Of a stretch of 48,151 nt of DNA, positions 1 to 46,626 are shown piece after piece. How positions within the stretch are numbered: the stretch's first letter is position 1; every line of letters begins with the position of its first letter. This DNA is from Deltaproteobacteria bacterium. Lineage in GTDB: Bacteria; Desulfobacterota; GWC2-55-46; UBA9637. A program made the position numbers and the translations under genes. The notes below the pieces were generated by a model. The model was not told the DNA's origin. It made no database searches and saw only the letters and a program-made list of their open reading frames with translations. The stretch lies in the NCBI GenBank assembly GCA_016200645.1, contig JACQEJ010000096.1, positions 1 through 48,151 of the forward strand. Direction: 5' to 3'.

Positions 1-1852
1 GCCGCGCGGGATGTGGCTTGCAGAGAGGATATGGGAGCCTCAACTTCCTGTTTGTCTGAAAGAAGCAGGGATGGAATATGCTGTTGTGGATGACTATCAT
101 TTTGTGAAGGCCGGGCTGAGAAAAGAGCAGTTGGCAGGTTATTACATTACAGAGGATATGGGAAATGTTTTGAAGATTTTTCCCGGAAGTGAGCGGCTCA
201 GATATATTATCCCGTTTCAGACATCGGATAAGTTTATGGAAAATATCCGATGGGTTGAAACTCTCGGAACAAACCCGGTGGCAATATTTGCTGATGACGG
301 CGAGAAATTTGGCACATGGCCGGGCACGCACCAGTGGGTTTATAAAGAAGGATGGCTTGAAAAATTCCTTGAGACCATTGTGAAAAATCCGGAACTGATA
401 AAGCCGGTAACCTTTTCTGAATATATGGACAATAACGAACCTCTCGGCAGGGTATATCTGCCGACCACATCCTACATGGAGATGGGGGAGTGGACGTTGC
501 CTGCCGAGGCATCGGAGACATATACGAATCTTCTGAATGAGGTTAAGACATGGCCTGACGGAGAGCGGATACGGAGATTTTTGCAAGGCGGATTCTGGAG
601 GAATTTATTTGCCAAGTATCCTGAGGCGAATTGGATGCACAAGAGGATGCTGATGGTGAGCGAAACGATTGCGGAATGCGGAATGCGGAATGCGGAATTA
701 GAATCTAAACTCCCAACCCCCAACTCCCAACTCCGAACTTATTTATACATGGCCCAGTGCAACGATGCATATTGGCACGGCGTGTTCGGAGGACTTTATC
801 TGCCGCATATCAGAAGGGCGGTTTATGAGAATCTGATTAAGGCGGAGAATCTTTTAGAAGAAAGGCTTAAGGCTGAAGAAAAACAGGCTGAGGGCAAATC
901 TTCTTCCTCTAACCTCCAGCCTGATAAAGAGGTCTTACGACCAGCCTTCAGCCTGATTAGAGATTTTGATGCTGATACCTTCGATGAAATATTAGTCAGG
1001 ACACCGGAACTTAATCTCTTTTTGAGTCCTCATAACGGAGGCTCTATCATAGAACTGGATTACAGGCCAAAGGCTGTAAATCTTTCCAATACGCTTTCAC
1101 GGTGGAAGGAAGGCTATCATCACAGGGTAAAGGCTCAGGGAGAGGGTGGCCATGCCGGCGGCACAAAGAGCATCCATGATTTAACCATGTCCAAGGAAGA
1201 AGGGCTGGAGAAGTATCTCTTCTTTGATAAAGAACAGAGACTTTCGCTGCGCGATCATTTTTTGAAAAAGGAAGAGACGCTGGATGCCTTCAGAAAATCT
1301 GCGCATGAGGAAATGGGGGATTTTGCTTACAGACCGTATGAAAATAATAAGGGGCAAGTGGCAAGGGGCAAGGGGCAGGTTATTTTTAGCAGAGATGGAA
1401 AGGTAAATGGCCAAGCGGTTTTGGTGGAGAAAAAAATATCGGTTAAGGATAATGGAATAATAATAGACTATTGTGTGAAGAGAAACTCTCAACTCCCAAC
1501 TCCCAGCTCCCAACTCCCTCTACGGTTCGGCATTGAATTTAATCTTATTTTGCCGTGCTGCGACGGCATGGACGGATTCTATGATATTTCCATAGAAGAC
1601 AAAGGGCTTGGTGGTTCCGGAGAGATTGTCGGCATAAGGCAAATAGGTTTAGTGGACAAATGGACAAAGATGAGGGTGGATTTCGGTTTTGACAGGGATA
1701 CCTCTTTGTGGAGATTTCCTGTAGAAACCGTTTCCATATCCGAGGCCGGATTTGAGAGAAATTTTCAGGGCTCATGTATTTTGTTTTTCTGGGATATATC
1801 AATGGACAAGAGTTTTGAAGTAGGTTTTAAAGTTAAGGTGGAAGCAATTTAA
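1..1852 (+). CDS. Glycoside hydrolase family 57 protein (alpha-amylase/4-alpha-glucanotransferase-like), 5' end outside window
   Basis: Frame open from nt 2. WLAERIWEP, DDGEKFGTWPG and CNDAYWHGVFGGLYLPHIR motifs are typical of GH57. Stop at 1850-1852. Carries four low-complexity repeat insertions. Confidence 0.8.
   Translation, partial: PRGMWLAERIWEPQLPVCLKEAGMEYAVVDDYHFVKAGLRKEQLAGYYITEDMGNVLKIFPGSERLRYIIPFQTSDKFMENIRWVETLGTNPVAIFADDGEKFGTWPGTHQWVYKEGWLEKFLETIVKNPELIKPVTFSEYMDNNEPLGRVYLPTTSYMEMGEWTLPAEASETYTNLLNEVKTWPDGERIRRFLQGGFWRNLFAKYPEANWMHKRMLMVSETIAECGMRNAELESKLPTPNSQLRTYLYMAQCNDAYWHGVFGGLYLPHIRRAVYENLIKAENLLEERLKAEEKQAEGKSSSSNLQPDKEVLRPAFSLIRDFDADTFDEILVRTPELNLFLSPHNGGSIIELDYRPKAVNLSNTLSRWKEGYHHRVKAQGEGGHAGGTKSIHDLTMSKEEGLEKYLFFDKEQRLSLRDHFLKKEETLDAFRKSAHEEMGDFAYRPYENNKGQVARGKGQVIFSRDGKVNGQAVLVEKKISVKDNGIIIDYCVKRNSQLPTPSSQLPLRFGIEFNLILPCCDGMDGFYDISIEDKGLGGSGEIVGIRQIGLVDKWTKMRVDFGFDRDTSLWRFPVETVSISEAGFERNFQGSCILFFWDISMDKSFEVGFKVKVEAI
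671..739. repeat. In-frame tandem heptamers (GCGGAAT)x4 then (CTCCCAA)x4 inside the GH57 CDS
   Basis: Read directly: gcggaatgcggaatgcggaatgcggaat..ctcccaacccccaactcccaactccgaact. Encodes AECGMRNAELESKLPTPNSQLRT. Confidence 0.9.
864..956. repeat. In-frame mirrored repeat (GGCTGAAGG words and their complements) inside the GH57 CDS
   Basis: ggcttaaggctgaag..caggctgaggg on the left, cagccttcagcctga on the right. Same word family as intergenic hairpin 25914-25987. Confidence 0.75.
1349..1379. repeat. In-frame AAGGGGC heptamer tract inside the GH57 CDS
   Basis: aaggggcaagtggcaaggggcaaggggcagg. Encodes KGQVARGKGQV. Confidence 0.9.
1486..1520. repeat. In-frame CTCCCAA heptamer tract inside the GH57 CDS
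   Basis: ctctcaactcccaactcccagctcccaactccctc. Encodes SQLPTPSSQLPL. Same word as 710-739. Confidence 0.9.
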
Positions 1853-1927
1853 GCGTCAGAGAGTCAAAGAATCAGAGTGTCAGAGAAAAAACTTTGACTC
1901 TATGACCCTGTGATACTTTGACTCTTC
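1853..1927. repeat. Intergenic imperfect hairpin built from GTCAGAG-type words and their complements
   Basis: Left arm gtcagagagtcaaagaatcagagtgtcagag, right arm ctttgactctatgaccctgtgatactttgactc. Lies between the GH57 gene and kdsC. Confidence 0.8.
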
Positions 1928-3434: not shown

Positions 3435-4949
3435 TTATTTGGCGAGCCTTTCCTTGACCAGCTTATTCAACACCTGCGGATTTGCCTGTCCCTTGGTCGC
3501 CTTCATGGTCTGACCGATAAAAAAGCTGAAGAGTTTTTCCTTTCCTCCCTTATATTCAGCGACCTCTTTGGGATTGGCGGCAATCACTTCGTCTATCGCC
3601 TTTATCAATGCGCCCTCGTTTGAAATCTGGACAAGCCCTTTCCCCTTTACTATCGCCTCCGGGTCCTTGCCTGTTTTATACACATCCTCAAACACTTCCT
3701 TTGCGGTTTTTAAATTGATACTCCCTGCATCAACCATCTTGAGAAGTTTTGCAAAGGCTGAAGGCTGAATGCTGAAAGTGGAAGGCTGTGTTATATCTTT
3801 GCCGTCCTCTTTGATCAGCCTCAACAACTCCCCCATGACCCAGTTGGACACATTTTTGCCAGCAGTTCCTTGCCCCTTGCCCCTTGCCCCTTGCCCCTCG
3901 TATTTTTGGACGCACTCTTCATAATAATTCGCCAATTCCTTGCTTGCGGTTAAAACACCTGCATCATAGGAAGGGATGCCATATTCTTTTATAAACCTTT
4001 GTCTCTTTTTTGCCGGAAGCTCCGGCAAGGTATTTTTTATCTCCTCTATCCATGCCTCATCAATATGCAAAGGAAGCAGATCGGGTTCAGGAAAATAGCG
4101 GTAATCGTGCGCCTCTTCCTTGCTCCGCATGGAAACGGTTATCCCTTTATCAGAATCAAAGAGCAGTGTTTCCTGAATAACCTTGCCGCCGTCCTCTATA
4201 ACCTCTATCTGTCGGTTTACCTCGTAATCAATTGCCTTTTGCACAAATCTGAATGAGTTCATATTTTTAAGCTCTGTCTTTGTGCCAAATTCTTTCCGGC
4301 CCACAGGCCTTATGGAGACATTTGCATCGCAGCGGAAACTCCCCTCTTCCATGTTGCCGTCGCAAATCTCAAGGTAAACCAGTATGTCCCGGAGCGCTTT
4401 GAGATATTCCACCGCCTCTTCTGAATTGCGAATATCCGGCTCGCTCACAATCTCAATCAGAGGAACGCCAGCCCTATTCAAATCAACAAAGCTAAAATCC
4501 GCATCCTCATAGCTCTCGCCGTGAAGGAGCTTTCCTGCGTCCTCTTCCATGTGTATCCTTGTTATGCCGATGCGCCTTTTTGCGCCGTTTACCCCCACAC
4601 CAAAATCTTTGGTGTGGGGGTTTACTTCAATATCAACATAACCCTTTTGTGTCAGGGGTTGGTCATACTGGGAAATCTGATACCCCTTTGGCAGGTCAGG
4701 ATAAAAATAGTTCTTCCGCGCAAAGATGCTTTTGTCGTTAACCTTGCAATGCGTTGCCAGAGCCATCTTTATGGCATATTCAACCGCTACCCTGTTTAAA
4801 ACAGGGAGCGTTCCGGGCATTCCAAGGCAGACCGGACAGACCTGCGTATTCGCCTCTGCGCCGAATTTTGTGGAACACCTGCAAAAGACCTTTGAGTTTG
4901 TCAAAAGCTGGGCGTGGACTTCAAGACCGATAACGGCTTCATATTGCAT
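3435..4949 (-). CDS. gatB: Asp-tRNA(Asn)/Glu-tRNA(Gln) amidotransferase subunit B
   Basis: [35 protein letters not shown] and a GatB/YqeY tail. 504 aa, longer than typical GatB because of two repeat insertions. Confidence 0.95.
3868..3898. repeat. In-frame AAGGGGC heptamer tract (coding strand) inside gatB
   Basis: Plus strand reads ccttgccccttgccccttgccccttgcccct. Encodes [12 protein letters not shown] in GatB. Confidence 0.9.
4592..4620. repeat. Palindromic element family P1 (CCCCCACACCAAA..TTTGGTGTGGGGG), in frame inside gatB
   Basis: cccccacaccaaaatctttggtgtggggg flanked by gtttac on both sides. Encodes [12 protein letters not shown] between IEV and [19 protein letters not shown]. Confidence 0.9.
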
Positions 4950-5252: not shown

Positions 5253-5285
5253 CATTGCTTTAAGAATCTTCTACGGAGGTAGCAT

Positions 5286-10992: not shown

Positions 10993-11961
10993 ATGGCGCT
11001 TCAACAATTTTTGGAATTTGAAAAACCGGTGGTTGAGTTGGAAAAGAAGATAGAAGAGCTCAAGCAGGCAGCCTTGGATACAAAGGTTGATAACAGCCAT
11101 GAGATAGAAAGGCTGAGCCAAAATGCAATGCGGCTTCAGGAGGAGATATTCTCAAATCTTACGCCGTGGCAGATAACGCAGCTTGCCAGGCATCCGCTTA
11201 GGCCATATACGTTGGATTATACGCCGCGTCTGTTTAAAGATTTTATTGAACTGCATGGCGACAGAAATTTTCGGGACGACCCTGCTATAGTCGGCGGCCT
11301 TGCGATGCTTGAAAATGAGCCTGTCATGGTTATAGGCCACCAAAAGGGGAGAACGACAAAGGAAAAAGTCTTCAGAAATTTCGGCATGCCCAATCCCGAA
11401 GGTTACCGCAAGGCTGTCCGGCTTATGAGCATGGCGGAGCGTCTCAAAAAGCCGATAATAACATTCATAGACACACCTGGCGCATTTCCGGGCATAGGCG
11501 CAGAGGAGCGCGGCCAGGCAGAGGCGATTGCCAAAAATCTTATGGTTATGTCAAGGCTTAAGGTGCCTATAATTGTTGTTGTTATAGGCGAAGGCGGCAG
11601 CGGCGGCGCGCTGGCCATCGGTGTCGGAGACCGAATTTTAATGCTGGAATATGCCACCTATTCGGTGATATCACCTGAAGGGTGCGCTGCAATACTATGG
11701 AAAGACGTAAGCAAGGCGGATGTTGCGGCAAAAGCGCTCAAGATAACAGCGAAAGACCTTCATAAGCTTGGGATCATTGATGAGGTGGTGAAAGAACCCC
11801 TTGGCGGCGCGCATCAGAGTATAGATGCAATGGCAATAACCATGAAAGAGGCTCTTGTGAGGTCGCTTCAGGATTTAAAGAAGTTTTCTCAGGATGAATT
11901 GCTGGAAATGAGGTATAAGAAATATAGGGAGATAGGAAAGTTTCAGGAAATTAGCTCATAG
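10993..11961 (+). CDS. accA: Acetyl-CoA carboxylase carboxyltransferase alpha subunit
   Basis: [18 protein letters not shown]-terminus, IDTPGAFPG and [10 protein letters not shown] motifs. ATG at 10993 with GGAG 7 nt upstream is preferred over the TTG at 10969. Confidence 0.9.
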
Positions 11962-12026
11962 CTCATGGCTCATAGCTGATAGTTTATAGTTTTTTACTAT
12001 GAGCCACGAGCTATCAGCCATGAGCT
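11953..12026. repeat. Intergenic mirrored heptamer hairpin (GCTCATA words), overlaps the accA stop
   Basis: Left arm agctcatagctcatggctcatagctgatag, loop ttttt, right arm actatgagccacgagctatcagccatgagct. Confidence 0.85.
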
Positions 12027-12039
12027 GTTCTTAATAACT

Positions 12040-14211
12040 ATGGACGACTTAAAAAAAATAACAGAACTCAGGGCAAAGATAGATGTCATTGACGACAAGA
12101 TTCTGGACCTCCTGAATAAGAGAGCGCGTCTTGTCATTGAGGTTGGCAAGGAAAAGGTAGAGGGGAAAAGGGATTTTTATGCGCCTGAAAGAGAAAAGGA
12201 GATATACAAAAGGTTGACCGGGAAGAATCCCGGGCCTTTTCCCAATCAAGCGTTAAAGAATGTATTCAGGGAGATTATGTCCGCTTCCCTTTCCCTGGAA
12301 CGACCTTTAAAGGCTAGTTATTTCGGTCCAAAGGCCACCTTTACCCATCAGGCGTGTATGGAGTATTTTGGCCTTTCCGCAGAATTTGTCCCTGAAAAGG
12401 ATATTGCAGATGTGTTTGAAGATGTGGAGAGGGGGAAGACAGATTTTGGCGTGGTGCCTATAGAAAATACCATAGAAGGGGTTGTAAGCCATACCATTGA
12501 CATGTTCGTAACCTCTGATATAAAGATATGCGGGGAGATAATTATGGAGGTATCCCTTTCCCTTTTAAATAAAACCGGCAGGATTGAAGATGTAAAAAAG
12601 ATATGTTCCTACCCCCATGCCATCGCTGAGTGTAGAGAGTGGCTCAGGGAGCATGTTCCGGATATTCCGGTTTTTGATGTGTCTTCAACGGCAATGGCTG
12701 CACAGACCGCAAGCGAAGATCCGTCAGCCGCTGCCATTGCCAGTGAATTTGCGGCAGCCATCTATGATCTGCAGGTTGTTGAAAGAAAGATAGAAGACCA
12801 TACAAATAATTTTACGAGATTTCTTGTTATCGGGAAGAAAAGCCCTGAAAGAAGCGGCGATGACAAGACATCTATCATGTTTGCAGTAAAGGATGTCCCT
12901 GGCGCGCTGTACAGGATTCTTAAACCATTTGCAGAAAAAGGGATAAATCTTACCAAGATTGAATCCAGGCCGCAAAAGGGCAAGGCATGGGAATATATAT
13001 TCTTTGCGGATATGGACGGCCATGTCTCGGACAGCAAGGTGTCCGATGCGCTCAAGGAGCTTGAGGCGCAGTGTTCTTTTATGAAGATACTGGAGGCCTT
13101 AGTTCCATATCCGCCTGGCAAGCCTATGGAAGAGCTTGAGAGGGAGTTGGGGATAAAAAATTCCATCAAACTTGCGTCCAATGAAAACCCGCTTGGGCCT
13201 TCGCCTAAGGCTGTGGAGGCTGTGGCAAAGGCGCTCAAAAATCTCCACAGGTATCCTGATGGCGGATGTTATTATCTCAAGGAAAAGCTGGCTCAGCGTC
13301 TCAAGGTGAAGCCGGAGAATCTCATCATCGGCAACGGCTCCAATGAAATCATTGAGCTTGTCATCAGGACATTTTTAAGACCGGGCGATGAGGCGGTCAT
13401 GGGCAACCCGTCGTTTGCCGTATATCCGCTGGTTGTGCCTGCGGCAGGCGGAAAGAGCGTGCTCGTGCCTTTAAAAAATCTGACCCACGATTTGGATGCA
13501 ATGTTTGACGCGATAACGGAAAATACAAAATTGGTATTCATTGCAAACCCGAACAATCCCACAGGCACAATGAATACCAAGGCGCAGCTTGATAAATTTA
13601 TCGGCAGGTTGCGTAACGATATAATCCTTATTCTGGATGAGGCGTATTATGAATTTGTTACGGATAAGGATTTCCCCGCTTCTTTGGATTATTTAAACAG
13701 CGGCAAGAATATTGTGATACTCAGGACATTTTCAAAGATTTACGGCCTCGCAGGTTTGCGCGTAGGCTACGGCATTGCGCCTGAAAAGCTCAACTTTTAC
13801 ATGAATAAGGTGCGGCAGCCCTTTAATGTAAACAGCCTCGCCCAGATTGCTGCGATGGCTGCCTTGGATGATGACGAGCATCTAAAAAGGTCTCAGCGAA
13901 ATAACAGGGAAGGGCTTGCGTATCTCTTTGGAGAGTTAAAGGCAATGGGGCTTGAGTGCGTGCCTACGCAGGCGAATTTCTTTCTTATCAAGGTGGGCAA
14001 AGGCAAAGATGTTTACCCCCACACCAAAAATTTTGGTGTGGGGGTTTACGATGCGCTTTTAAGACAGGGCGTGATTGTCCGACCGATGGCAAGTTACGGC
14101 CTCGGCGAATACATCCGCGTTACCGTGGGACTGCCTGAGGAGAATAAGAGGTTTGTGGAGGCATTGAAAAAGACAGTAAACAGTAGACAGGAAAAAGATG
14201 GTAGAGGGTAG
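12040..14211 (+). CDS. pheA: Fusion protein: chorismate mutase / prephenate dehydratase / ACT domain + histidinol-phosphate/aromatic aminotransferase (HisC-like)
   Basis: CM helix LRAKIDVIDDKILDLLNKRA. PDT motif YFGPKATFTHQA. ACT motif TSIMFAVKDVPGALYRIL. Then LVPYPPGKP..KLASNENPLGPSP and FSKIYGLAGLRVGY (PLP-lysine motif) with no intervening stop; 723 aa. Confidence 0.85.
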   Translation: MDDLKKITELRAKIDVIDDKILDLLNKRARLVIEVGKEKVEGKRDFYAPEREKEIYKRLTGKNPGPFPNQALKNVFREIMSASLSLERPLKASYFGPKATFTHQACMEYFGLSAEFVPEKDIADVFEDVERGKTDFGVVPIENTIEGVVSHTIDMFVTSDIKICGEIIMEVSLSLLNKTGRIEDVKKICSYPHAIAECREWLREHVPDIPVFDVSSTAMAAQTASEDPSAAAIASEFAAAIYDLQVVERKIEDHTNNFTRFLVIGKKSPERSGDDKTSIMFAVKDVPGALYRILKPFAEKGINLTKIESRPQKGKAWEYIFFADMDGHVSDSKVSDALKELEAQCSFMKILEALVPYPPGKPMEELERELGIKNSIKLASNENPLGPSPKAVEAVAKALKNLHRYPDGGCYYLKEKLAQRLKVKPENLIIGNGSNEIIELVIRTFLRPGDEAVMGNPSFAVYPLVVPAAGGKSVLVPLKNLTHDLDAMFDAITENTKLVFIANPNNPTGTMNTKAQLDKFIGRLRNDIILILDEAYYEFVTDKDFPASLDYLNSGKNIVILRTFSKIYGLAGLRVGYGIAPEKLNFYMNKVRQPFNVNSLAQIAAMAALDDDEHLKRSQRNNREGLAYLFGELKAMGLECVPTQANFFLIKVGKGKDVYPHTKNFGVGVYDALLRQGVIVRPMASYGLGEYIRVTVGLPEENKRFVEALKKTVNSRQEKDGRG
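14016..14044. repeat. Palindromic element family P1, in frame inside the aminotransferase part of the fusion gene
   Basis: cccccacaccaaaaattttggtgtggggg, again flanked by gtttac on both sides. Encodes YPHTKNFGVGVY. Confidence 0.9.
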
Positions 14212-14291
14212 AAGGTAGATGGTAGAAAGAAAATCTTTTGTTTCTCCTGTCTACCTTCTACTACCTACTCTCTACTTCCTACTGCCTACTT
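14181..14291. repeat. Mirrored heptamer hairpin (GTAGAAG words), covers the fusion gene's 3' end and the spacer
   Basis: Left arm ggtagagggtagaaggtagatggtagaaag, right arm ctgtctaccttctactacctactctctacttcctactgcctac. Confidence 0.85.
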
Positions 14292-15323: not shown

Positions 15324-16226
15324 ATGAAAGGGGCAAGGGGCAAGGGGCAAGGGGCAGGAGAAATACACTTTAATAAAGTTGCCATAATCGGCGTTGGTCT
15401 TATCGGCGGGTCCCTTGCGATTATTTTGAGAGAAAAGGGAATTGCAAAAAATATTGTCGGCATCGGCAGGGGGCTGAAAAATCTTGAGACTGCAAAAAAA
15501 CTCGGTGTTATTGATTCATACACGCAGGATGCAAGGGAGGGCGTCCGGGACGCAGACCTTGTTGTGGCTGCAATACCTGTTGCAGGTATTGCAAAGGTTA
15601 TAAAAGAAGCGCTGCCTTTGCTCAAGAAAGGCGCAATAGTCACAGATGTCGGGAGCGTCAAGAAAAACATTGTCGATGAAGTAGAAAAAATCCTTCCTGA
15701 TACAATTCATTTTGTCGGAGGCCATCCTATTGCGGGCACTGAGAATGCAGGCGTTGAGGCTGCATTTTCCACACTCTTCCAGAATAAGAGATGCATACTC
15801 ACACCTACCAAAAAAACGAATAAAGCCGCTTTGGGGAAGGTAAAAAAACTGTGGGAGATTGCAGGCTCTGAAGTAATCGTCATGGATGCGGAAAAGCACG
15901 ACAAAATCCTTGCCGCTGTAAGTCATCTGCCCCATGTTGTCGCCTATTCACTCGTGAACACCGTAAGCAACATAAATGATTTTAATGAAAGCATTATAAA
16001 ATATTCAGCAGGCGGTTTTAAGGATTTTACCCGCATTGCCTCAAGCCCGCCTGAGATGTGGCGGGACATCTGCCTTTTGAACAAAGACGCGATACTTGAT
16101 GTTGTCCTAAGATTTCAGAAGACGCTTAAAGGGCTGGAGGAGATGATAAAAGACAGCGATGGAGAGGGGCTTCAAAAGGAATTTGAAAAGGCAAAGGCAG
16201 TAAGGGATGGGTTGAAGAAGGGGTAG
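15324..16226 (+). CDS. tyrA: Prephenate dehydrogenase
   Basis: VAIIGVGLIGGS Rossmann motif and HPIAGTE motif. The N-terminal 11 codons are repeat-encoded. Confidence 0.85.
   Translation: MKGARGKGQGAGEIHFNKVAIIGVGLIGGSLAIILREKGIAKNIVGIGRGLKNLETAKKLGVIDSYTQDAREGVRDADLVVAAIPVAGIAKVIKEALPLLKKGAIVTDVGSVKKNIVDEVEKILPDTIHFVGGHPIAGTENAGVEAAFSTLFQNKRCILTPTKKTNKAALGKVKKLWEIAGSEVIVMDAEKHDKILAAVSHLPHVVAYSLVNTVSNINDFNESIIKYSAGGFKDFTRIASSPPEMWRDICLLNKDAILDVVLRFQKTLKGLEEMIKDSDGEGLQKEFEKAKAVRDGLKKG
15328..15358. repeat. In-frame AAGGGGC heptamer tract at the tyrA 5' end
   Basis: aaggggcaaggggcaaggggcaaggggcagg. Encodes [11 protein letters not shown] directly after the start codon. Confidence 0.9.
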
Positions 16227-16232: not shown

Positions 16233-16300
16233 CCTTCAGATTGATTAGCACGATAACGATGTGGTAATCTTTACTTTACCGGTATTTAAAAAGGTATCCT

Positions 16301-17031: not shown

Positions 17032-17062
17032 ATAAACGGTCGCTGTCCCTATTTTCTCTCAG

Positions 17063-17179
17063 AGATTTCAGAACACGCTTAAAAGGCTGGAGGAGATGAT
17101 AAAAGACAGCGATGGAGAGGGGCTTCAAAAGGAATTTGAAAAGGCAAAAGGGGTAAGGGATGGGTTGAAGAAGGGGTAG
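17063..17179 (+). pseudogene. Orphan duplicate of the last ~38 codons of tyrA, including the stop
   Basis: Translates to RFQNTLKRLEEMIKDSDGEGLQKEFEKAKGVRDGLKKG*, which parallels the true TyrA C-terminus. No upstream body. Confidence 0.8.
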
Positions 17180-23133: not shown

Positions 23134-23172
23134 AGTAGAAAGTAGAAGGTAGAAGGTAGAAGACTGTCTACT
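23134..23172. repeat. Intergenic GTAGAAG heptamer tract
   Basis: cagtagaaagtagaaggtagaaggtagaagactgtctact. Same word as 14181-14291. Confidence 0.85.
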
Positions 23173-23447: not shown

Positions 23448-25903
23448 TTGATGCCTCCTTCCTCTCCTCTAATTTCTATGCCGAATTTATCTTTTAAGCC
23501 TTTTAATATTGCCAAGTGGGCGCTATTCACTTCCTCATCGGTCAATGTTCTATCCGGAGAACGATACAGAAAGCGAAGGGCGATGCTCACTTTGTCTTGC
23601 GGGATATGTTCACCGTAGTATACATCAAAAACATTAACTTCTTCAAGGAGTTTCATATCCAGCGCTTTGACAAAATGATAAACCTCCTGGAACGAAATCT
23701 CCTTATCTATTATCATTGCCGCATCCCTGACTATCGTAGGATATGTAGGGAGAGAAGCGTATCTTTTTTTTCTGTGGGAAGCTATGAGAATGGCATTCAT
23801 GCCAAGCTCAAATATATGCACAGGCTGTTTGATATCCAGCCGCTGCATGGCATCAGGATGAATTTCTCCTATTATTCCGAGTCTCCGGTTGGATACCTCA
23901 ATCACAGCGGCCTTGCCAGGGTGCAGGAACGGGATATCTCCCCTGGGGATAAAGGCATACCTGTCAATGCCCAGCCCTGTCAAAACCTGTTCCGCTGCGC
24001 CTTTTATATCGTAAAAATCCGCAGCCTCCCTGCCGGTATTCCATGCCTCGCCGTATCTGAGGCCGCTTATCAAACCGCTTACGAGCTCCCTCTCTTCGGT
24101 TTCCTTCCCCTTTGGGATAAATATCTTGCCGATCTCAAAAATCTTTATGTCGCGATTATTGTAATTCAAATTATACTGCAGGGTTTGCAAAAGACAGGGG
24201 ATAAGACTCTGCCTCATCACAGATTGTTCGTCTGTTAATGGATTTATCAGCGCCAATCCGCTTTTTATATCAGGTGTTGTAATCTCAAAAAACTTTGGTG
24301 ACAGAAAGCTATAATTGACAGCCTCGAGAAAACCATTGTTGATTAAAATATCCCTCGCCTTTTCTCTTAGCAAATCCGCCCCTTTTGTTTTACGGGTTGA
24401 TAATCCTGCTGCCGGAAGGATGGCGGGGATATTTTCATAGCCGTAGAGCCTTGCAATTTCTTCTATGATATCTATCTCTTTGAGCAAGTCCACCCTGAAC
24501 GCAGGCGGTATAACATTCCATGCCGTCTGCTGCCTGCTGCCTGTTGCCTTACAGGCGATGCTGAGTCTCTTCAAGCAATCCTCAACCTCTTTTTTCTTTA
24601 TATCAATGCCGAGGAGTTTATTTATTCGGGAAAGTCTTACTTTAATCGCTGCGGGTTTGTGCGGCCTGGGGTATTTATCAACGGCTCCATCTGCTATATT
24701 TCCGCCTGCCAGTGCAGCGATCATCCGGGCAGCCCTGTCCAATGCCTTTGCCACGCCCTCTATGTCGGCGCCCCGCTCAAATCTGTAAGATGACTCGGTA
24801 GAAATCCCCAATGCCTTTGATGTCCTCCGCACACAGGCAGGATCAAAATATGCGCTCTCCAGCAGGATATTTTTTGTTGTCTCCCGTATCTCCGATCCCT
24901 TTCCGCCCATAATCCCTGCCAGGGCAACAGGCCTCTCCTTATCAGCAATAACAAGCATATCCCTGGTAAGCGCCCTGTCAATGCCATCAAGGGTCTGAAG
25001 CCTTTCATTTTCTTTCGCCATTCTTACCACGATCTGTTTGCCGGAAATAAGGTCGTAGTCAAACGCATGCAAGGGGTGGCCGTATTCGAGCATCACATAA
25101 TTGGTCGCATCCACCACATTGTTTATTGCTCTGAAGCCGAGAAACTCAAGTCTCTGCTTAAGCCAGACCGGCGAAGGGCCGATTTGAACATTTTCAATAA
25201 TCTGCGCGGCATATCGTCTGCAAAGAGAAGGTTCAGCAATGGAAACGTACGGGAGTTTTGTGTGTTGCGTTTTGCGTTTTGCGTTTTTACTCCTGACTCC
25301 TGACTTCTGACTCCTGACCGTAGCGCCTGTTATCGCGGCTATTTCTCTGGCAATCCCAATAATGGATAAACAATCCGGCCTGTTCGGCGTGACATTTATA
25401 TTGAAGATAAAATCATTTAAACCGGTTGCCTCTGTAAAATTTTTGCCGATGGGAAAATCTTGCGGCAGAATCATTATGCCAACCCCCTCGTGCCCCCCTT
25501 TTTCTAAAGGGGGGACGTGGGGGGTTAGCCCCAACTCAGCTTCGGAACACATCATGCCTTCGGATTCCACGCCCCTTATCTTTGTCTTCTCTATTTTTAT
25601 GCCTTTGGGCAACGTTGCCCCGGGAAGCGCCAGAGCGACTTTGTCGCCTGCCTTCATATTTTTTGCGCCGCAGACAATGGAGTGGACCCCTTTATCGGTC
25701 TTTACCTTGCAGAATGAAAGCCTGTCGGCATTTGGATGTTTTTCTACAGAGAGGATTTGGGCTATCACAACACCTTTTATATCTTTACCCGGCGCCTCAA
25801 TGCCTTCCACCTCAAAACCAGCCATGGTTAATTGTTCAGCCAGTTGAACAGGTGAGGGAATCGCTCTTATATATTCTTTAAGCCAGTTGTAGCTTATCTT
25901 CAT
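23444..25903 (-). CDS. pheT: Phenylalanine--tRNA ligase beta subunit
   Basis: MKISYNWLKEY N-terminus, tRNA-binding, B3/4, B5 and FDX-ACB regions. 819 aa, including two repeat insertions. Confidence 0.95.
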   Translation of the reverse strand: MKISYNWLKEYIRAIPSPVQLAEQLTMAGFEVEGIEAPGKDIKGVVIAQILSVEKHPNADRLSFCKVKTDKGVHSIVCGAKNMKAGDKVALALPGATLPKGIKIEKTKIRGVESEGMMCSEAELGLTPHVPPLEKGGHEGVGIMILPQDFPIGKNFTEATGLNDFIFNINVTPNRPDCLSIIGIAREIAAITGATVRSQKSGVRSKNAKRKTQHTKLPYVSIAEPSLCRRYAAQIIENVQIGPSPVWLKQRLEFLGFRAINNVVDATNYVMLEYGHPLHAFDYDLISGKQIVVRMAKENERLQTLDGIDRALTRDMLVIADKERPVALAGIMGGKGSEIRETTKNILLESAYFDPACVRRTSKALGISTESSYRFERGADIEGVAKALDRAARMIAALAGGNIADGAVDKYPRPHKPAAIKVRLSRINKLLGIDIKKKEVEDCLKRLSIACKATGSRQQTAWNVIPPAFRVDLLKEIDIIEEIARLYGYENIPAILPAAGLSTRKTKGADLLREKARDILINNGFLEAVNYSFLSPKFFEITTPDIKSGLALINPLTDEQSVMRQSLIPCLLQTLQYNLNYNNRDIKIFEIGKIFIPKGKETEERELVSGLISGLRYGEAWNTGREAADFYDIKGAAEQVLTGLGIDRYAFIPRGDIPFLHPGKAAVIEVSNRRLGIIGEIHPDAMQRLDIKQPVHIFELGMNAILIASHRKKRYASLPTYPTIVRDAAMIIDKEISFQEVYHFVKALDMKLLEEVNVFDVYYGEHIPQDKVSIALRFLYRSPDRTLTDEEVNSAHLAILKGLKDKFGIEIRGEEGGIK
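25267..25318. repeat. In-frame tandem heptamers (GCGTTTT)x3 + (CTCCTGA)x4 inside pheT
   Basis: gcgttttgcgttttgcgtttttactcctgactcctgacttctgactcctgac. Encodes VRSQKSGVRSKNAKRKTQ on the minus strand. Confidence 0.9.
25481..25526. repeat. Palindromic element family P2, in frame inside pheT
   Basis: aaccccctcgtgcccccctttttctaaaggggggacgtggggggtt. Encodes TPHVPPLEKGGHEGVG after the conserved MCSEAELGL. Confidence 0.85.
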
Positions 25904-27718: not shown

Positions 27719-27735
27719 AGTTTCCTCCCTTTTTA

Positions 27736-27802
27736 AAGTTTCAAGTTGCAAGATTCAAGTTTCAAGTCTTTACTTACAACTTGCAACTTGTGACTTGCAA
27801 CT
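27736..27802. repeat. Mirrored heptamer hairpin (AAGTTGC/TTCAAGT words) between infC and rpmI
   Basis: Left arm aagtttcaagttgcaagattcaagtttcaagtc, right arm acttacaacttgcaacttgtgacttgcaact. Confidence 0.85.
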
Positions 27803-30782: not shown

Positions 30783-33605
30783 TCACCCTGTATTTCTCAG
30801 TCCGGCTGCAACACAGTTTATGCTCATCATAAGGGCTGCAATTAATTTTTCTCTTTCATTGCCGCTTGTCCTTTCATGCCTCAGCCTTTCTAAAAGTATG
30901 ACCTGGATATAATTTACCGGGTCTATGCTCGGCCTTCTCATGTTTATTGACCTCTGAAGAAACGGGCTGTTATCCAGCATATTTTTCTGCCCGGTAATCT
31001 TTAAAAGCATTTTTATTGTCAGGTTAAACTCTCTATCGATCTTTTCATATATTCTGTCTCTTATCTTTTTATCCTTTACAAGCGAGGAATAAAGCCTTGC
31101 AATGGTCATATCGGATTTTGCGATGACCATCTGAATATTATCCACAAGGTTATTGAAAAACGGCCATTTCTCATACATCTCCTGAAGCATCCTTTCCCGT
31201 GACGCATCATTTTTTATAAATGCCTTCAGGCTGGAGCCGAACGGATACCATCCCGGTATGATGTGCCTGCTCTGGTTCCAGCTGAAAACCCACGGGATTG
31301 CGCGCAAATCCTCTACCCCGCCTTTCCCTTTTCTGTAGGTCGGTCTGGAGCCTATCTTCAGGTGCTCCAGTTCTTGTATTGGAGTGGCCTGATAAAAGTA
31401 TGTGAGGAAATCAGGGTCGTCAACCAGCTCCCTGTAGAGCCCGTATGATATTTCAGATATTTCCTTGAATGCCTCTTCAAATATATTTTCTTTCTTTGAC
31501 TGTTCACTGTTAACTGTTAACTGTTCACTGCCTAATGTCGCTTCCATAGCCCCGGCTACGAGCATATTTAAGTTATACAATGCCGTGCCGAGGTTTGCGT
31601 ATTTGGACGATATAACCTCGCCCTGCTCCGTTATTTTTATCAAGCCGTTCACTGTGCCGCGCGGCTGGGCAAGGATTGCCTTATGCGTCGGACCGCCGCC
31701 CCTGCCCACGGTGCCGCCCCTTCCGTGAAAGAATTTGAGTTTGATTTGATATTCTGCCGCCGTCTCGGTGATTATCTTCTGGGCATGGTAGAGCTCCCAG
31801 CTGGAGGTCAATATCCCGCCGTCCTTGCAGCTGTCCGAATAACCGAGCATAACCTCCTGGATATTATCCCTCTTTGCCAGATATCGTTTGTAGACCGGAT
31901 TTGAAAAGAGAGATTTTAATATTATCGGCGCCCTTCTTAAGTCATCTATGGTTTCAAAGAGCGGAACTATATCAAGCCGGTTAAACAGCTCATGGTCGTC
32001 GCTCGTTCCGCAAAGCCCTGCCTCTTTGGCCAAAAGCTGGACTGTCAGGATATCGCTGGCGTTGTGCGTCATGCTGACAATATAAGAGCCGATAGAATCC
32101 CAGCTTATCCTATCCTGGGCGTGCCTGATTACCCTGAATGTTTCCAGAACCTCCCGCGTTTCCGGAGAGAGGCGAACATAGTCCGGCACCAGAGGCCGCA
32201 GGGAGGTAAGCTCTCCGGAAAGAAGCCTCATCTTGTCCTGTTCCGACAAGGCAAGGTATCCTGATTTCACAACGTCGGCCTTTTCCAGAAGCTCTGCCGC
32301 AGCCATTCTGTGAACTTCGCTGTGCTGCCGTATATCCAGCTTCGCCAGATGAAATCCAAAGGTCAACGTCTGCCATATTAGGGGATATATCTCAAGACGC
32401 GCAATCCTTTCTCCTTTATGAGCCGATAAGCTTCTTTGAATGATGTTTAAATCCTCTATAAACTCCTCTCTGTCTCTGTAAGAAAACCCTTCCCTGTTTG
32501 CAGCGGTATTTTCAAGCTTTTTCTTGATAAGCGAAAGTTTCTGCCGGTACGGCTCATGCGGATTTCTCGCTATAATCTTTTCTCCCTCAACTCCCATATC
32601 TCTGGCATCTTTCTTGATAGAGATAAGGAGCTCCTTGCTCGGCAGGATAAGCTGCCGGGATATGCTGAGCCGGGATATCAGATGCGAGACGATTTCTCTA
32701 TACTGAGAAAGGACTAACTCCTTGTGGGAATTCAGGGTCCACCTCGTCTTCTCGCCGGTAACAAAGGGATTTCCATCCCTGTCGCCCCCTATCCAGCTGC
32801 CAAAGGATAATAAAGGTGGAATTGAAAAATTATAATTTGGATAGTATTTGCGGAGATAATACAAAAGTTCATCATGCAGCATAGGGAGAACTTCAAAAAA
32901 TGTCTTATTGAAATAAAAAAGGCCGTTTTGAACCTCCTCTTCCACCTTTGGACTTTCAAGCCTTATATCGCCTGTCTGCCAGAGTTTCTGAACCTCCCCG
33001 AGTATCTCTTCCCGTATGACCTCTTTTTCCCGGTTGGTCCAGATGGGGTTTTCTTTCCGGAATATCGCCAGATATATCCTTCTGTGTTTTTCCAGAACTG
33101 TTCTTCGTTTCACCTCCGTAGGATGGGCGGTTATTACCGGTGAAATCGCCAGTTGATTCAAAAGAAATTGTATCTTTTCAGGACGAATCCCTTTTTTCCT
33201 GAATGCCCTGATGCACTCATCCAGAGAGCCCGGCACAGGTTCCCCTTGCCGCTGAATCCTTCTCCTGTCCTGCATGCCGAAATTTTCCTCTGCCAGATTG
33301 ACAAGCTGAAAATTGATGGAATATGCCTGAATAATCTGAGCCGTTTCATCAAGCCTGAGGCCTTTTATCTTTTTAAAGAGTTTGGAGGATGTTGACGAAA
33401 CGGAGGGGGACGGGACTACGCCGTTCCCGGCAGATGCGCTCAGCTCTTCCATCACCTTGAGCAATCTTTTCCCAATCTGCTCAAGAAGGACATCAGAGAG
33501 GATTGCCTTTAGATATGCTATGTCATTAACAAGGGTGTTATCCTGATACATACCGTACGCAGCAAGCAAGGGGCGGCGCCCCTGTGCCCGCCCCAATAAG
33601 GGCAA
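30783..33605 (-). CDS. ppc: Phosphoenolpyruvate carboxylase
   Basis: VITAHPTEVKRRTV and FHGRGGTVGRGGGP motifs, C-terminal GLRNTG. The start is uncertain: TTG at 33605 lies in repeat-like sequence, and ATG at 33551 (MYQDNTL) is the alternative. Confidence 0.9.
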   Translation of the reverse strand: MPLLGRAQGRRPLLAAYGMYQDNTLVNDIAYLKAILSDVLLEQIGKRLLKVMEELSASAGNGVVPSPSVSSTSSKLFKKIKGLRLDETAQIIQAYSINFQLVNLAEENFGMQDRRRIQRQGEPVPGSLDECIRAFRKKGIRPEKIQFLLNQLAISPVITAHPTEVKRRTVLEKHRRIYLAIFRKENPIWTNREKEVIREEILGEVQKLWQTGDIRLESPKVEEEVQNGLFYFNKTFFEVLPMLHDELLYYLRKYYPNYNFSIPPLLSFGSWIGGDRDGNPFVTGEKTRWTLNSHKELVLSQYREIVSHLISRLSISRQLILPSKELLISIKKDARDMGVEGEKIIARNPHEPYRQKLSLIKKKLENTAANREGFSYRDREEFIEDLNIIQRSLSAHKGERIARLEIYPLIWQTLTFGFHLAKLDIRQHSEVHRMAAAELLEKADVVKSGYLALSEQDKMRLLSGELTSLRPLVPDYVRLSPETREVLETFRVIRHAQDRISWDSIGSYIVSMTHNASDILTVQLLAKEAGLCGTSDDHELFNRLDIVPLFETIDDLRRAPIILKSLFSNPVYKRYLAKRDNIQEVMLGYSDSCKDGGILTSSWELYHAQKIITETAAEYQIKLKFFHGRGGTVGRGGGPTHKAILAQPRGTVNGLIKITEQGEVISSKYANLGTALYNLNMLVAGAMEATLGSEQLTVNSEQSKKENIFEEAFKEISEISYGLYRELVDDPDFLTYFYQATPIQELEHLKIGSRPTYRKGKGGVEDLRAIPWVFSWNQSRHIIPGWYPFGSSLKAFIKNDASRERMLQEMYEKWPFFNNLVDNIQMVIAKSDMTIARLYSSLVKDKKIRDRIYEKIDREFNLTIKMLLKITGQKNMLDNSPFLQRSINMRRPSIDPVNYIQVILLERLRHERTSGNEREKLIAALMMSINCVAAGLRNTG
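31498..31532. repeat. In-frame CACTGTT/TTAACTG heptamer tract inside ppc
   Basis: tgactgttcactgttaactgttaactgttcactgcc. Encodes GSEQLTVNSEQS on the minus strand. Confidence 0.85.
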
Positions 33606-34026: not shown

Positions 34027-34079
34027 ACCGTAAGTCGTAAGTCGGAAGTAGTTACCACTTACTACTTACAACTTACTGT
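34027..34079. repeat. Mirrored heptamer hairpin (CGTAAGT words) between kinase and regulator genes
   Basis: Left arm cgtaagtcgtaagtcggaagtagt, right arm accacttactacttacaacttactg. Overlaps the kinase stop. Confidence 0.85.
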
Positions 34080-37551: not shown

Positions 37552-37845
37552 TCAGGCCTCTTTTACCCCGTTGCGCTCGTCTATTCTCTGCTGGAAGAGA
37601 CGGGTTGCGAGTTGCCAGTTGCGAGTTCTTACCCGCAACCCGTAACCCGCAACTTTCAACCCCTTCTCGTTCAAAACAACCATATCGTTTGTGTCAGCAA
37701 GAAAATTTTTATGGCAAAACAAATTTTGCAGTGCTTCTTTACCCGACCCCAGTGCCTTCGTATTTTGCATTGCAAGGCAGGTTTCCAGAGACTTCATTGC
37801 AGCACGTTCAGTGGGGTCTTGGCTCAGGGAAATTTTGATCCACAC
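37552..37845 (-). CDS. Hypothetical protein (doubtful); partly encoded by a repeat hairpin
   Basis: 97-codon ORF ending 3 nt before the kinase start. No recognisable motif. Codons KVAGYGLRVRTRNWQLAT come from hairpin 37601-37654. Confidence 0.3.
   Translation of the reverse strand: MWIKISLSQDPTERAAMKSLETCLAMQNTKALGSGKEALQNLFCHKNFLADTNDMVVLNEKGLKVAGYGLRVRTRNWQLATRLFQQRIDERNGVKEA
37601..37654. repeat. Mirrored heptamer hairpin (GTTGCGA words)
   Basis: Left arm gggttgcgagttgccagttgcgagtt, right arm acccgcaacccgtaacccgcaact. Confidence 0.85.
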
Positions 37846-41525: not shown

Positions 41526-41641
41526 ACAGGCAAGGGGCGATAGGCAAAGAAATTCTAAATTCTAAACTCAAAATTTTAAATTTGAAATTTGTAATTTGGA
41601 TATTAGAATTGCTAATCCTATAGCCCATAGCCTATAGCCTA
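41526..41641. repeat. Two-tier mirrored element: outer GGCAA(G/T)(G/A)GG / CCTATAGCC words, inner AATTCTA-type heptamers
   Basis: acaggcaaggggcgataggcaa..aattctaaattctaaactcaaaattttaaatttgaaatttgtaatttgg..ttagaatt..cctatagcccatagcctatagcc. Confidence 0.85.
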
Positions 41642-41652
41642 TTTTGATTTCT

Positions 41653-44437: not shown

Positions 44438-44493
44438 GCAATAGGCGATGGGCAATAGGAAAACCCATAGCCTATAGCCCATTGCCAATAGCC
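44417..44493. repeat. Mirrored heptamer hairpin (GGCAATA / CCTATAG words), overlaps the permease stop
   Basis: Left arm ggctataggcaataggcgatgggcaatagg, right arm cccatagcctatagcccattgccaatagcc. Confidence 0.9.
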
Positions 44494-44505
44494 AATTCTT
44501 TTATT

Positions 44506-44975: not shown

Positions 44976-45053
44976 ACAGGCAATAGGCTATAGGCAATGG
45001 GTTAGAGACCAAAGTTTTTTTCCTATCACTTATAGCCTCTTGCCTATAGCCTG
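44976..45053. repeat. Mirrored heptamer hairpin (GGCAATA / CCTATAG words)
   Basis: Left arm acaggcaataggctataggcaatggg, right arm cctatcacttatagcctcttgcctatagcctg. Confidence 0.9.
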
Positions 45054-45685: not shown

Positions 45686-45755
45686 GGGTTAAGGTTGAGG
45701 TTAAGGTTAAGAAAAAATCTTTTACTCAACCTCAACCTTAACCTCAGCCTTTTTT
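45686..45755 (+). terminator. Mirrored hexamer hairpin (GGTTAA words) followed by a T-run; terminator-like
   Basis: Left arm gggttaaggttgaggttaaggttaag, right arm ctcaacctcaaccttaacctcagcc, then tttttt. Lies between cysC and cysH. Confidence 0.6.
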
Positions 45756-46536: not shown

Positions 46537-46626
46537 CAAATTAAAATTTAAAAATAACATTCCTTAATTTTGATATTTGATTTTTCATCTTTGATTTTAC
46601 TTGCCTATAGCCCATAGCCTATCGCC
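46477..46626. repeat. Two-tier mirrored element (outer GGCAATA words, inner A/T-rich heptamers), then T-run and RBS of sat
   Basis: acaggcaataggcaagaggcaataggcaatag..aatcaaaagtcaaaatgacaaattaaaattt..ttaattttgatatttgatttttcatctttgatttt..cttgcctatagcccatagcctatcgcc. Confidence 0.9.

What the first reader, a model, noticed from the sequence alone, without database searches (positions are those of the whole stretch)
671..1520. One enzyme gene carrying four separate in-frame repeat insertions
The GH57 ORF stays open through four tracts. These are (GCGGAAT)x4+(CTCCCAA)x4 at 671-739, a mirrored GGCTGAAGG element at 864-956, AAGGGGC heptamers at 1349-1379 and CTCCCAA heptamers at 1486-1520. A 7-nt unit is not a multiple of 3, so only certain copy numbers preserve the frame. 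All four tracts do. This implies purifying selection on insert length, or a mechanism that adds frame-neutral blocks. These tracts are also potential slipped-strand ON/OFF switches.
Basis: seen in the sequence. Interest (0 to 1): 0.65.

Follow-up and report, generated by a model that had tools for sequence, protein, structure and literature searches.

The report
Heptamer repeat inserts in enzyme loops
The four repeat tracts are real, but they are local examples of small 7-base tandem-repeat and hairpin elements that litter this bacterium's whole genome and survive inside genes only where they keep the reading frame, avoid stop codons and sit in floppy protein loops; nothing suggests an on/off switch.

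Summary
The GH57 ORF (2-1852) stays open through (GCGGAAT)4+(CTCCCAA)4, a degenerate inverted AAGGCTG/CAGCCTT element, (AAGGGGC)4 and (CTCCCAA)5.

The gene is not special. The 48-kb window holds 24 strict period-7 arrays against 0 in shuffles. Most are intergenic hairpins whose two arms are heptamer arrays (z -4 to -7). Others lie in GatB, PheT, PEP carboxylase and MerR.

The four GH57 sites are loops or linkers, by AlphaFold and the 1K1W alignment. Relatives (about 65-77% identical) carry different arrays or hairpins at the same sites; 50%-identical homologues carry short loops.

Selection is visible in three ways:
- Coding arrays use stop-free units.
- One array is mutated exactly where TAA would fall in frame.
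- Two close relatives differ by a clean 21 nt, which is 3 units.

Near-identical alleles from many samples show no length variation, and essential genes carry the same arrays, so a phase switch is unsupported.

The closest known cases are the Geobacter metallireducens four-heptanucleotide elements, cyanobacterial STRRs and intragenic REP/RPE palindromes. This is a new member of a known kind.

One point is unexplained: the same heptamers (GGGGTCA, GCGGAWT) recur across phyla.

The parts
2..1852 (+). GH57-family alpha-amylase/4-alpha-glucanotransferase gene. It is truncated at its 5' end by the window edge and hosts the four tracts.
   Evidence: Pfam GH57, AmyA middle and AmyA C-terminal domains. 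Homologous to T. litoralis 4-alpha-glucanotransferase 1K1W, E 4e-117.
671..739 (+). Tract 1 (site 1): (GCGGAAT)4, an 11-nt spacer, then (CTCCCAA)4. It encodes AECGMRNAELESKLPTPNSQL.
   Evidence: It is a loop between helices 207-225 and 240-253, pLDDT 56. 1K1W is 15 residues shorter here. The arms are only weakly complementary (z -0.9), but orthologue inserts at this site are hairpins (z -3.2 to -5.9).
864..956 (+). Tract 2 (site 2): a degenerate hairpin with AAGGCTK units facing CAGCCTT units.
   Evidence: Fold -35.8 kcal/mol, z -2.9. L002 carries a cleaner version, (AAGGCTK)2 ... (TTCAGCC)3, and L001 lacks the insert. It lies in the linker between the middle and C-terminal domains, pLDDT 53 for residues 301-310.
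1349..1379 (+). Tract 3 (site 3): a single array, (AAGGGGC)4.
   Evidence: L003 has (AAGGGTC)4 at the same place, and L004 and L007 have (TCAGGGG)3-4, which indicates concerted evolution. It is a loop, pLDDT 70.
1486..1520 (+). Tract 4 (site 4): a single array, (CTCCCAA)5.
   Evidence: L002, L007 and L008 have no insert here; L004 has (AAACTCT)5; L003 and L006 have hairpins. It is the loop 495-506 between strands.
1855..1927 (+). Hairpin with octamer-array arms (GTCAGAGA / TTTGACTC), immediately after the GH57 stop codon.
   Evidence: TRF period 8. Fold -29.7 kcal/mol, z -4.7.
3754..3898 (-). Two arrays inside gatB: sense (GGCAAGG)4.4 at 3868-3898 and (CAGCCTT)5 at 3754-3788.
   Evidence: There is an 11-aa insert, [11 protein letters not shown], relative to the solved GatB structures 3H0L and 3AL0.
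25255..25318 (-). Adjacent arrays inside pheT, sense (CAGGAGT)4 and (GCAAAAC)4.7. Further arrays lie at 24527-24549 and 25914-25933.
   Evidence: The peptide is VRSQKSGVRSKNAKRKTQ. There is no hairpin (z +1.3). The pair lies between the tRNA_bind and B3_4 domains.
31499..31530 (-). Array (AGTTAAC)4.6 inside the PEP carboxylase gene, with stop-avoiding point changes.
23135..23162 (-). Array (+ strand GTAGAAG, sense CTTCTAC) x4 inside a MerR-family gene.
11952..12026 (.). Intergenic hairpin with heptamer-array arms (TAGCTCA). It overlaps the accA stop codon.
   Evidence: Fold -40 kcal/mol, z -7.2.
14196..14290 (.). Intergenic hairpin with arms (GGTAGAN)4 and (CTACNNN)n.
   Evidence: Fold -43.5 kcal/mol, z -6.3.
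15328..15356 (+). A perfect (AAGGGGC)4 array at the junction of the DAHP synthase and prephenate dehydrogenase genes.
   Evidence: No hairpin.
27732..27802 (.). Intergenic hairpin, (TTTCAAG)5 / (ACTTGCA)4, between infC and rplT.
   Evidence: z -4.2.
34029..34076 (.). Intergenic hairpin, (CGTAAGT)3 / (TTACNAC)3.6.
   Evidence: z -4.2.
37604..37653 (.). Intergenic hairpin, (GTTGCGA)3.4 / (ACCCGCA)3.3.
   Evidence: z -6.2.
41550..41642 (.). Intergenic A+T-rich heptamer arrays with a hairpin.
   Evidence: z -2.8.
44419..44496 (.). Hairpin, (AATAGGC)5.9 / (ATAGCCA)4.3, overlapping the 3' end of the symporter gene.
   Evidence: z -5.3.
44978..45052 (.). Intergenic hairpin, (AGGCAAT)3 / (TATAGCC)3.
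   Evidence: z -6.0.
45687..45750 (.). Hairpin with hexamer-array arms (GGTTAA / CTCAAC) followed by TTTTTT, so it looks like a terminator.
   Evidence: z -7.0.
46479..46595 (.). (AGGCAAT)4.3 at the C-terminal tail of the PAPS reductase gene, followed by an A+T-rich heptamer hairpin.
   Evidence: z -2.6.

Best explanation
The four tracts are copies of a genome-wide class of small elements found in this uncultured 'Deltaproteobacteria' lineage (about 42-45% G+C). The elements are tandem arrays of about 4-5 units of 7 nt (sometimes 6 or 8). They are typically arranged as two arrays in inverted orientation that form a hairpin.

Shown: in intergenic DNA the elements persist as strong stem-loops at gene ends, like REP or STRR elements and in some cases like terminators.

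Inferred: the arrays arise and turn over by replication slippage or template switching on short local seeds. They are also shuffled between related lineages by homologous recombination.

Shown: inside genes only a filtered subset survives. The survivors have a total length that keeps the frame, units with no sense-strand stop codon, and positions in surface loops or inter-domain linkers.

Shown: GH57 has four such permissive sites, and each has been occupied repeatedly and differently across the clade.

Inferred: the encoded peptides are tolerated passengers. They are not functional modules, and they are not a switch.
For: - Genome-wide excess. There are 24 period-7 arrays against 0 in shuffles. 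Relatives carry 0.4-0.9 arrays per kb, and 22 kb of a 50%-identical homologue locus carries none.
- Hairpins. Intergenic pairs fold with z -4 to -7. Orthologue site-1 inserts fold with z -3.2 to -5.9.
- Same sites, different units in each lineage; absent from distant homologues.
- Loops and linkers, from the AF2 model and 1K1W gaps. GatB has an 11-aa insert relative to crystal structures.
- Selection filter. Stop-free sense units are 11/13 in coding arrays against 8/20 in intergenic arrays. TAA is avoided in the PEP carboxylase array. Lengths are congruent mod 3.
- Slippage. A clean 21-nt (3-unit) difference separates L090 and L091. Whole-array single-base differences such as (AAGGGGC)4 against (AAGGGTC)4, and GCGGAAT against GCGGATT, indicate concerted evolution.
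- Recombination mosaic.
- Stability in populations.
- No transposase, RAYT or reverse transcriptase in the 48 kb.
- Precedents: G. metallireducens has 49 four-heptanucleotide elements within and between genes, plus paired arrays on opposite strands (PMC2700814). A heptamer excess in bacteria has been reported (PMC4692102).
Against: - The origin step (slippage or template switching) is inferred and not observed.
- The regular copy number of about 4 and the cross-phylum reuse of a small heptamer vocabulary are not predicted by neutral local slippage. 136 arrays fall into 84 classes where about 126 are expected, and 12 classes have at least 3 members where 0.6 are expected.
- L004 and L009 are about 98% identical in their flanks yet have entirely different site-1 and site-2 inserts. 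This needs recombination junctions right at the insert edges.
- No reads were available for this organism.
- Any function of the intergenic hairpins is untested. The simple terminator scan did not flag them.
Confidence: 0.7

Rival explanations
1. The tracts are slipped-strand contingency switches. Gain or loss of single 7-nt units turns GH57 (glycogen/glucan metabolism) ON and OFF within the population.
For: 7-nt units are not multiples of 3. Slippage does occur over evolutionary time (the 21-nt indel). The 671-698 array is perfect. Two relatives' contigs end right at site 1, which could reflect heterogeneity.
Against: There are no length variants among 12 alleles at least 99% identical from many samples, nor among seven near-identical (at least 99%) alleles of another lineage. 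Most arrays are interrupted by variant units. The same arrays sit in the essential genes gatB and pheT. The only indel seen is frame-preserving. The 182-aa 'fragments' in a protein cluster turned out to be the neighbouring gene.
Confidence: 0.04
2. The elements are non-autonomous mobile DNA (REP/RPE or MITE-like). They are inserted as pre-formed hairpins by a trans-acting transposase such as a RAYT, and they are not born locally.
For: The inserts are hairpins. Some orthologue inserts are non-repeat palindromes bounded by GTAG...CTAC, like GTAG-tagged REPs: L004 and L007 at site 1, and L003 at site 4 (PMC3733652). The same units recur at unrelated loci and in other phyla. Whole inserts are replaced between near-identical strains. 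Intragenic in-frame REPs and RPEs are documented.
Against: There is no conserved full-length consensus, because dozens of unrelated unit sequences occur. No target-site duplications or terminal inverted repeats were seen. No transposase lies in 48 kb. Array units often resemble the adjoining ancestral sequence. Filled sites differ from empty sites by 15 and 24 nt, which does not fit a discrete element length.
Confidence: 0.2
3. The repeat-encoded peptides are adaptive. Selection favours new flexible or disordered linkers in GH57 and other enzymes, as proposed for Borg tandem repeats.
For: The inserts sit in linkers and loops, are hydrophilic and rich in G/S/Q/E/K, and recur at the same sites in distant lineages including Nitrospirota. 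The Borg precedent is PMC9879509.
Against: The peptide sequences are unconserved and are replaced wholesale between close relatives. Some relatives lack inserts at sites 2 and 4. The same arrays are mostly intergenic. The unit length is not divisible by 3, unlike Borg amino-acid repeats.
Confidence: 0.06

Closest known systems
Geobacter metallireducens multicopy elements: 49 'four tandem heptanucleotide' elements (GGACCGG), plus paired arrays of 3-5 seven-to-nine-nt units on opposite strands (Aklujkar et al. 2009, PMC2700814)
   Same: About four tandem 7-nt (or 8-nt) units. [quoted passage not shown] Paired arrays in inverted orientation with variable spacing. The host is a deltaproteobacterial-type lineage.
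   Different: In Geobacter there are a few families with one consensus each, interpreted as regulator-binding or RNA elements. Here there are dozens of different units. The orthologue comparison here adds site reuse, concerted evolution and a frame/stop filter, none of which were reported there.
Cyanobacterial STRR heptanucleotide repeats, and the general excess of 5-11-nt SSRs in free-living bacteria (Mazel 1990 and Mrazek 2007, as cited in PMC4692102); TAACTGA repeats of Beggiatoaceae (PMC4679880)
   Same: Tandem 7-nt units at many loci, mostly intergenic, with several unit families per genome. The vocabulary is shared across phyla with no known mechanism.
   Different: STRR and TAACTGA arrays are described as intergenic or 5'-UTR. 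In-frame occupation of enzyme loops, and hairpins with array arms, are not their defining picture.
Intragenic REPs and Rickettsia palindromic elements (Di Nocera et al. 2013, PMC3733652; Ogata et al. 2000, from my own knowledge)
   Same: Small palindromic DNA inserted in frame in housekeeping genes and tolerated as extra peptide segments. The same site is hit in related species. Element ends supply stop codons to flanking ORFs.
   Different: REP and RPE families have a conserved consensus (GTAG/CGTC tags) and a candidate transposase (RAYT). The elements here have variable tandem-repeat arms, no common tag and no transposase in view.
Phase-variable simple-sequence contingency loci (e.g. Haemophilus and E. 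coli neuO heptanucleotide tracts; PMC8262952 and PMC13001214, listed)
   Same: Heptanucleotide tandem tracts inside ORFs, where copy number sets the reading frame.
   Different: Those tracts are long, perfect, polymorphic within populations, and located in surface or modification genes. Here the tracts are short, interrupted, invariant among near-identical alleles, and located in housekeeping genes.

Membership tests
Heptanucleotide tandem-repeat elements (STRR / G. metallireducens H4-type) | Tandem arrays of a 7-nt unit, about 3-6 copies | tested here: met
   TRF and my own scan.
Heptanucleotide tandem-repeat elements (STRR / G. metallireducens H4-type) | Many dispersed loci per genome, well above chance | tested here: met
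   24 arrays against 0 expected in 48 kb; 0.4-0.9 per kb in relatives.
Heptanucleotide tandem-repeat elements (STRR / G. metallireducens H4-type) | Occurrence both between and within genes | tested here: met
   13 coding and about 20 intergenic arrays.
Phase-variable contingency locus | Copy-number polymorphism within a population or among near-identical strains | tested here: not met
   Tracts are identical in 12 and in 7 near-identical alleles of two related lineages. Reads for this organism itself are not available.
Phase-variable contingency locus | Long uninterrupted tract of identical units | tested here: not met
   Only 671-698 is perfect, at 4 copies. The others carry variant units.
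Phase-variable contingency locus | Host gene is dispensable and concerned with surface, modification or host interaction | tested here: not met
   The arrays are also in gatB, pheT and ppc.
REP / RPE intragenic palindromic elements | Imperfect palindrome able to form a stem-loop | tested here: inconclusive
   Met for the intergenic elements, tract 2 and the orthologue inserts. Not met for tracts 1, 3 and 4 in the window.
REP / RPE intragenic palindromic elements | A conserved family consensus with a GTAG or CGTC tag | tested here: not met
   136 arrays fall into 84 unit classes. GTAG...CTAC was seen only in a few orthologue hairpins and in one window element.
REP / RPE intragenic palindromic elements | Associated RAYT/IS200-like transposase in the genome | not testable with these tools
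   None lies in the 48-kb window by Pfam. The whole genome is not available.
REP / RPE intragenic palindromic elements | In-frame insertion at tolerated (surface) positions of proteins | tested here: met
MITE | Terminal inverted repeats plus a target-site duplication flanking a discrete element | tested here: not met
   Filled sites differ from empty orthologous sites by 15 and 24 nt, with no duplicated flank.
Borg-type amino-acid tandem repeats | Unit length divisible by 3 inside ORFs | tested here: not met
   The units are 7 or 8 nt.

The most novel reading that the evidence does not exclude
A sequence-specific generator or binder may be shared horizontally among groundwater and sediment phyla (this clade, Nitrospirota, Planctomycetota). 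It would write about four copies of units from a restricted heptamer vocabulary (GGGGTCA, GCGGAWT, GGAGYCA, AAKRGGC), often as hairpins, and would repeatedly rewrite the same genomic sites, including protein loops. On this reading the arrays are products of an unrecognised DNA-editing or mobile system, and not of passive slippage.
Probability: 0.12. Interest if true: 0.75.

Novelty: new member of a known kind. Interest (0 to 1): 0.35.

Why it matters
The finding shows in one gene how a lineage with rampant 7-nt microsatellite and hairpin formation remodels protein loops without breaking genes. The filter has three layers that can be read directly from the sequence: frame, stop codons and structural position.

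Practically, such tracts break assemblies, inflate protein-length diversity and can be mistaken for phase-variation loci.

The cross-phylum reuse of the same heptamers and the regular copy number of about 4 remain unexplained. A complete genome or long-read population data could address both.

Tried and rejected
- G-quadruplex idea for (AAGGGGC)4. Many arrays are not G-rich, so it cannot be general. It was not pursued.
- GTAG-tag (RAYT target) idea. The tag is present in a few orthologue hairpins and in the 14196 element, but absent from most arrays.
- Long-range pairing of tracts 3 and 4. The units are not complementary. L003 shares tract 3 but carries an unrelated hairpin at site 4.
- The N-terminal truncation of P0019. 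It looked like a possible frameshift but is a scaffold gap of Ns.
- The 182-aa members of the P0009 cluster. They looked like possible frameshift fragments but are the neighbouring KdsC-like hydrolase.
- The simple terminator scan did not flag the array hairpins, because their loops and stems fall outside its rules.
- Rfam found only three tRNAs.
- Assembly artefact was rejected, because identical tracts recur in independent NCBI, JGI, ENA and Logan assemblies.
- A metagenome scan for same-species contigs was not spent, because the GH57 protein is a singleton at 90% identity in the 5.8-billion-protein set.
Full report
**Observation**

The sequence at 671-1520 is as described.
- Tract 1: GCGGAAT x4, exact (671-698), then an 11-nt spacer, then four CTCCCAA-type units (710-739).
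- Tract 2: an imperfect inverted repeat, AAGGCTTAAGGCTGAAG ... CCAGCCTTCAGCCTG (864-956).
- Tract 3: four AAGGGGC units, one of them a variant (1349-1379).
- Tract 4: five CTCCCAA-type units (1486-1520).

Tandem Repeats Finder reports the same arrays. The ORF 2-1852 is open and runs off the window edge. It is a GH57 alpha-amylase/4-alpha-glucanotransferase (Pfam) and is homologous to Thermococcus litoralis 1K1W, E 4e-117.

Period-7 arrays are far above chance. A strict scan finds 24 in the window against 0.0 in shuffles, and periods 9-15 give none.

**The gene is not special**

Arrays occur throughout the 48 kb. The window is ordinary core chromosome. It holds dnaE, accA, aromatic amino-acid genes, pheST, infC, thrS, ppc and sulfate assimilation genes, with no transposase or reverse transcriptase.

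About two thirds of the arrays lie at gene boundaries. There they usually come as two arrays in inverted orientation and fold into strong stem-loops. Ten such elements have z-scores from -2.6 to -7.2 against dinucleotide shuffles. One has hexamer arms and a T-run. An octamer-arm hairpin sits directly after the GH57 stop codon (z -4.7).

The rest lie in ORFs:
- GH57;
- gatB, with an 11-aa insert [11 protein letters not shown] relative to crystal structures;
- pheT, in the linker between the tRNA_bind and B3_4 domains;
- ppc;
- a merR-family gene.

**Orthologue comparison**

The nearest GH57 homologues are about 65-77% identical over aligned positions (61% for the most distant clade member). BLASTP over the whole query gave 57-73%. 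They come from uncultured groundwater 'Deltaproteobacteria' MAGs such as GWB2_42_7.

In protein alignments the four tracts coincide with four hypervariable gaps. Homologues at 50% identity, and 1K1W, have short loops there.

At the DNA level each clade member carries its own element at the same sites.
- Site 1 holds (GCGGAAT)4+(ACTCCCA)4 in the window and nearly the same in L001.
- Site 1 holds (GAGTTCG)3+(AAGAAGC)4+(CTGCCTC)4 in L002.
- Site 1 holds (CAGTTAG)4+(CTCACAG)4 in L003.
- Site 1 holds octamers, (GAAACGGG)4+(CTTCTCCC)4, in GWB2_42_7.
- Site 1 holds non-repeat palindromes bounded by GTAG...CTAC in L004 and L007.
- Some relatives lack an insert at site 2 (L001) or at site 4 (L002, L007).

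The site-1 inserts of five relatives fold as significant hairpins (z -3.2 to -5.9). The window's copy has decayed (z about -1). So the basic element is a small palindrome, often with tandem-repeat arms. Tracts 3 and 4 are single arrays.

**Structure**

An AlphaFold2 model (mean pLDDT 86) places the tracts as follows.
- Tract 1: a loop between two helices (pLDDT 56).
- Tract 2: the end of a long helix plus the disordered inter-domain linker (pLDDT 53).
- Tract 3: a loop before a strand (pLDDT 70).
- Tract 4: a loop between two strands.

This agrees with the 1K1W gaps.

**Selection**

- Anchor-to-anchor lengths at sites 1 and 2 are congruent mod 3 in all orthologues, but differ by arbitrary multiples of 3. 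No array is a multiple of 3 by itself.
- Eleven of 13 coding arrays have units with no stop codon in any sense-strand frame. Only 8 of 20 intergenic arrays do.
- In ppc the unit AGTTAAC would give an in-frame TAA in copies 1 and 4. Exactly those two copies read AGTGAAC.
- Two relatives about 91% identical differ at site 1 by a clean 21 nt: (AAATCTC)5 against (AAATCTC)2, which is three units.
- Whole arrays differ between lineages by one base in every unit, for example (AAGGGGC)4 against (AAGGGTC)4, and GCGGAAT against GCGGATT. This indicates concerted evolution through repeated contraction and expansion or through conversion.

A special frame-neutral insertion mechanism is not needed.

**Phase variation**

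Twelve alleles of the GWB2_42_7 lineage, at least 99% identical and drawn from many samples, have identical sequence across all four sites. Seven near-identical (at least 99%) alleles of the GWA2_43_19 lineage agree in the same way.

Apparent short 'fragments' in a protein cluster are the neighbouring gene. A truncated N-terminus is a scaffold gap.

Essential genes carry the same arrays. I therefore see no support for an ON/OFF switch. Reads for this organism could not be examined.

**Turnover**

The window's GH57 is a mosaic. Successive segments are closest to L003, L001, L002, L003 and L001, and the highest identities (93-96%) surround the shared tracts.

L004 and L009 are about 98% identical outside the inserts, yet they have unrelated site-1 and site-2 inserts. 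L009's site-2 insert resembles that of the distant L007 within L004-like flanks.

Homologous recombination between co-occurring lineages, with junctions in the conserved flanks, is the simplest reading. A site-specific rewriting process is not excluded.

**Distribution**

Among 80 GH57 loci from GTDB genomes, high array density is confined to the close clade.

The remaining 1.2 Mb still holds 54 period-7 arrays. It holds 11 of period 6, 2 of period 8 and 3 of period 9.

Nitrospirota GH57 genes carry (GGGGTCA)n at site 2, and GWC2_42_11 carries (AAATCAA)4 at site 1.

Unit sequences are reused. 136 arrays fall into 84 rotation/strand classes, where about 126 are expected. Twelve classes have at least 3 members, where 0.6 are expected. 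GGGGTCA, GCGGAWT and GGAGYCA are shared by different phyla at non-orthologous loci. Part of the excess is due to orthology. The rest is unexplained.

**Comparison with known systems**

The closest precedent is Geobacter metallireducens. [quoted passage not shown] It also has paired arrays of 3-5 seven-to-nine-nt units on opposite strands (PMC2700814).

Other known cases:
- A heptamer excess in bacteria, and cyanobacterial STRRs (PMC4692102).
- TAACTGA repeats shared across phyla without a known mechanism (PMC4679880).
- In-frame intragenic REPs and Rickettsia palindromic elements, including reuse of the same site in related species (PMC3733652).

The elements here work like these. They fail the REP definition (no common consensus or tag), the MITE definition (no TIR or TSD) and the contingency-locus definition.

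**Verdict**

Interest is moderate to low for the finding as posed. The vocabulary sharing and the copy-number regularity are the parts worth following up.

Noticed in passing
window 16276-19498: A low-G+C island (35-41% against about 45%) lies between the prephenate dehydrogenase and EPSP synthase genes. It carries a HEPN-domain ORF, an N6/N4 DNA methylase and a 459-aa ORF with no Pfam match. It is probably an acquired restriction-modification or defence island.
   Followed up: partly
window 5283-5822 (+): One ORF combines a ribosome hibernation factor domain (Ribosomal_S30AE) with a C-terminal cold-shock domain. This is an unusual fusion.
   Followed up: no
window 11983-14211 (+): A four-domain fusion: chorismate mutase, prephenate dehydratase, ACT and a class I/II aminotransferase (742 aa).
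   Followed up: no
L020, L021, L023, L029, L089 (Nitrospirota), L064 (Planctomycetes), L017/L019/L069: The same heptamer units (GGGGTCA, GCGGAWT, GGAGTCA/GGAGCCA/GGAGACA) form arrays in unrelated phyla. L021, L023 and L029 carry GGGGTCA-type arrays (GGGTCCN in L023) inside GH57 at the window's site 2. L069 5137-5158 contains the Beggiatoa-type TAACTGA unit.
   Followed up: partly
L003 site 4; L004 and L007 site 1 (GH57 orthologues): These are non-repetitive, near-perfect palindromes bounded by GTAG...CTAC, inserted in frame at the same loops. They resemble GTAG-tagged REPs, the targets of RAYT transposases.
   Followed up: partly
L070 (contig end at 6245) and P0132: Two relatives' contigs end within a few bases of GH57 site 1. 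This suggests the arrays break short-read assemblies, through repeats or through strain heterogeneity.
   Followed up: no
window 3868-3898 (-), 15328-15356 (+), 1349-1379 (+): The identical unit AAGGGGC forms about 4-copy arrays at three unrelated loci. Two of them are perfect G4N3 x4 motifs with G-quadruplex potential, one on the sense strand of the essential gatB.
   Followed up: no
window 22641-22714, 30574-30646, 47813-47894 (all -): Three tRNA genes (Rfam).
   Followed up: no
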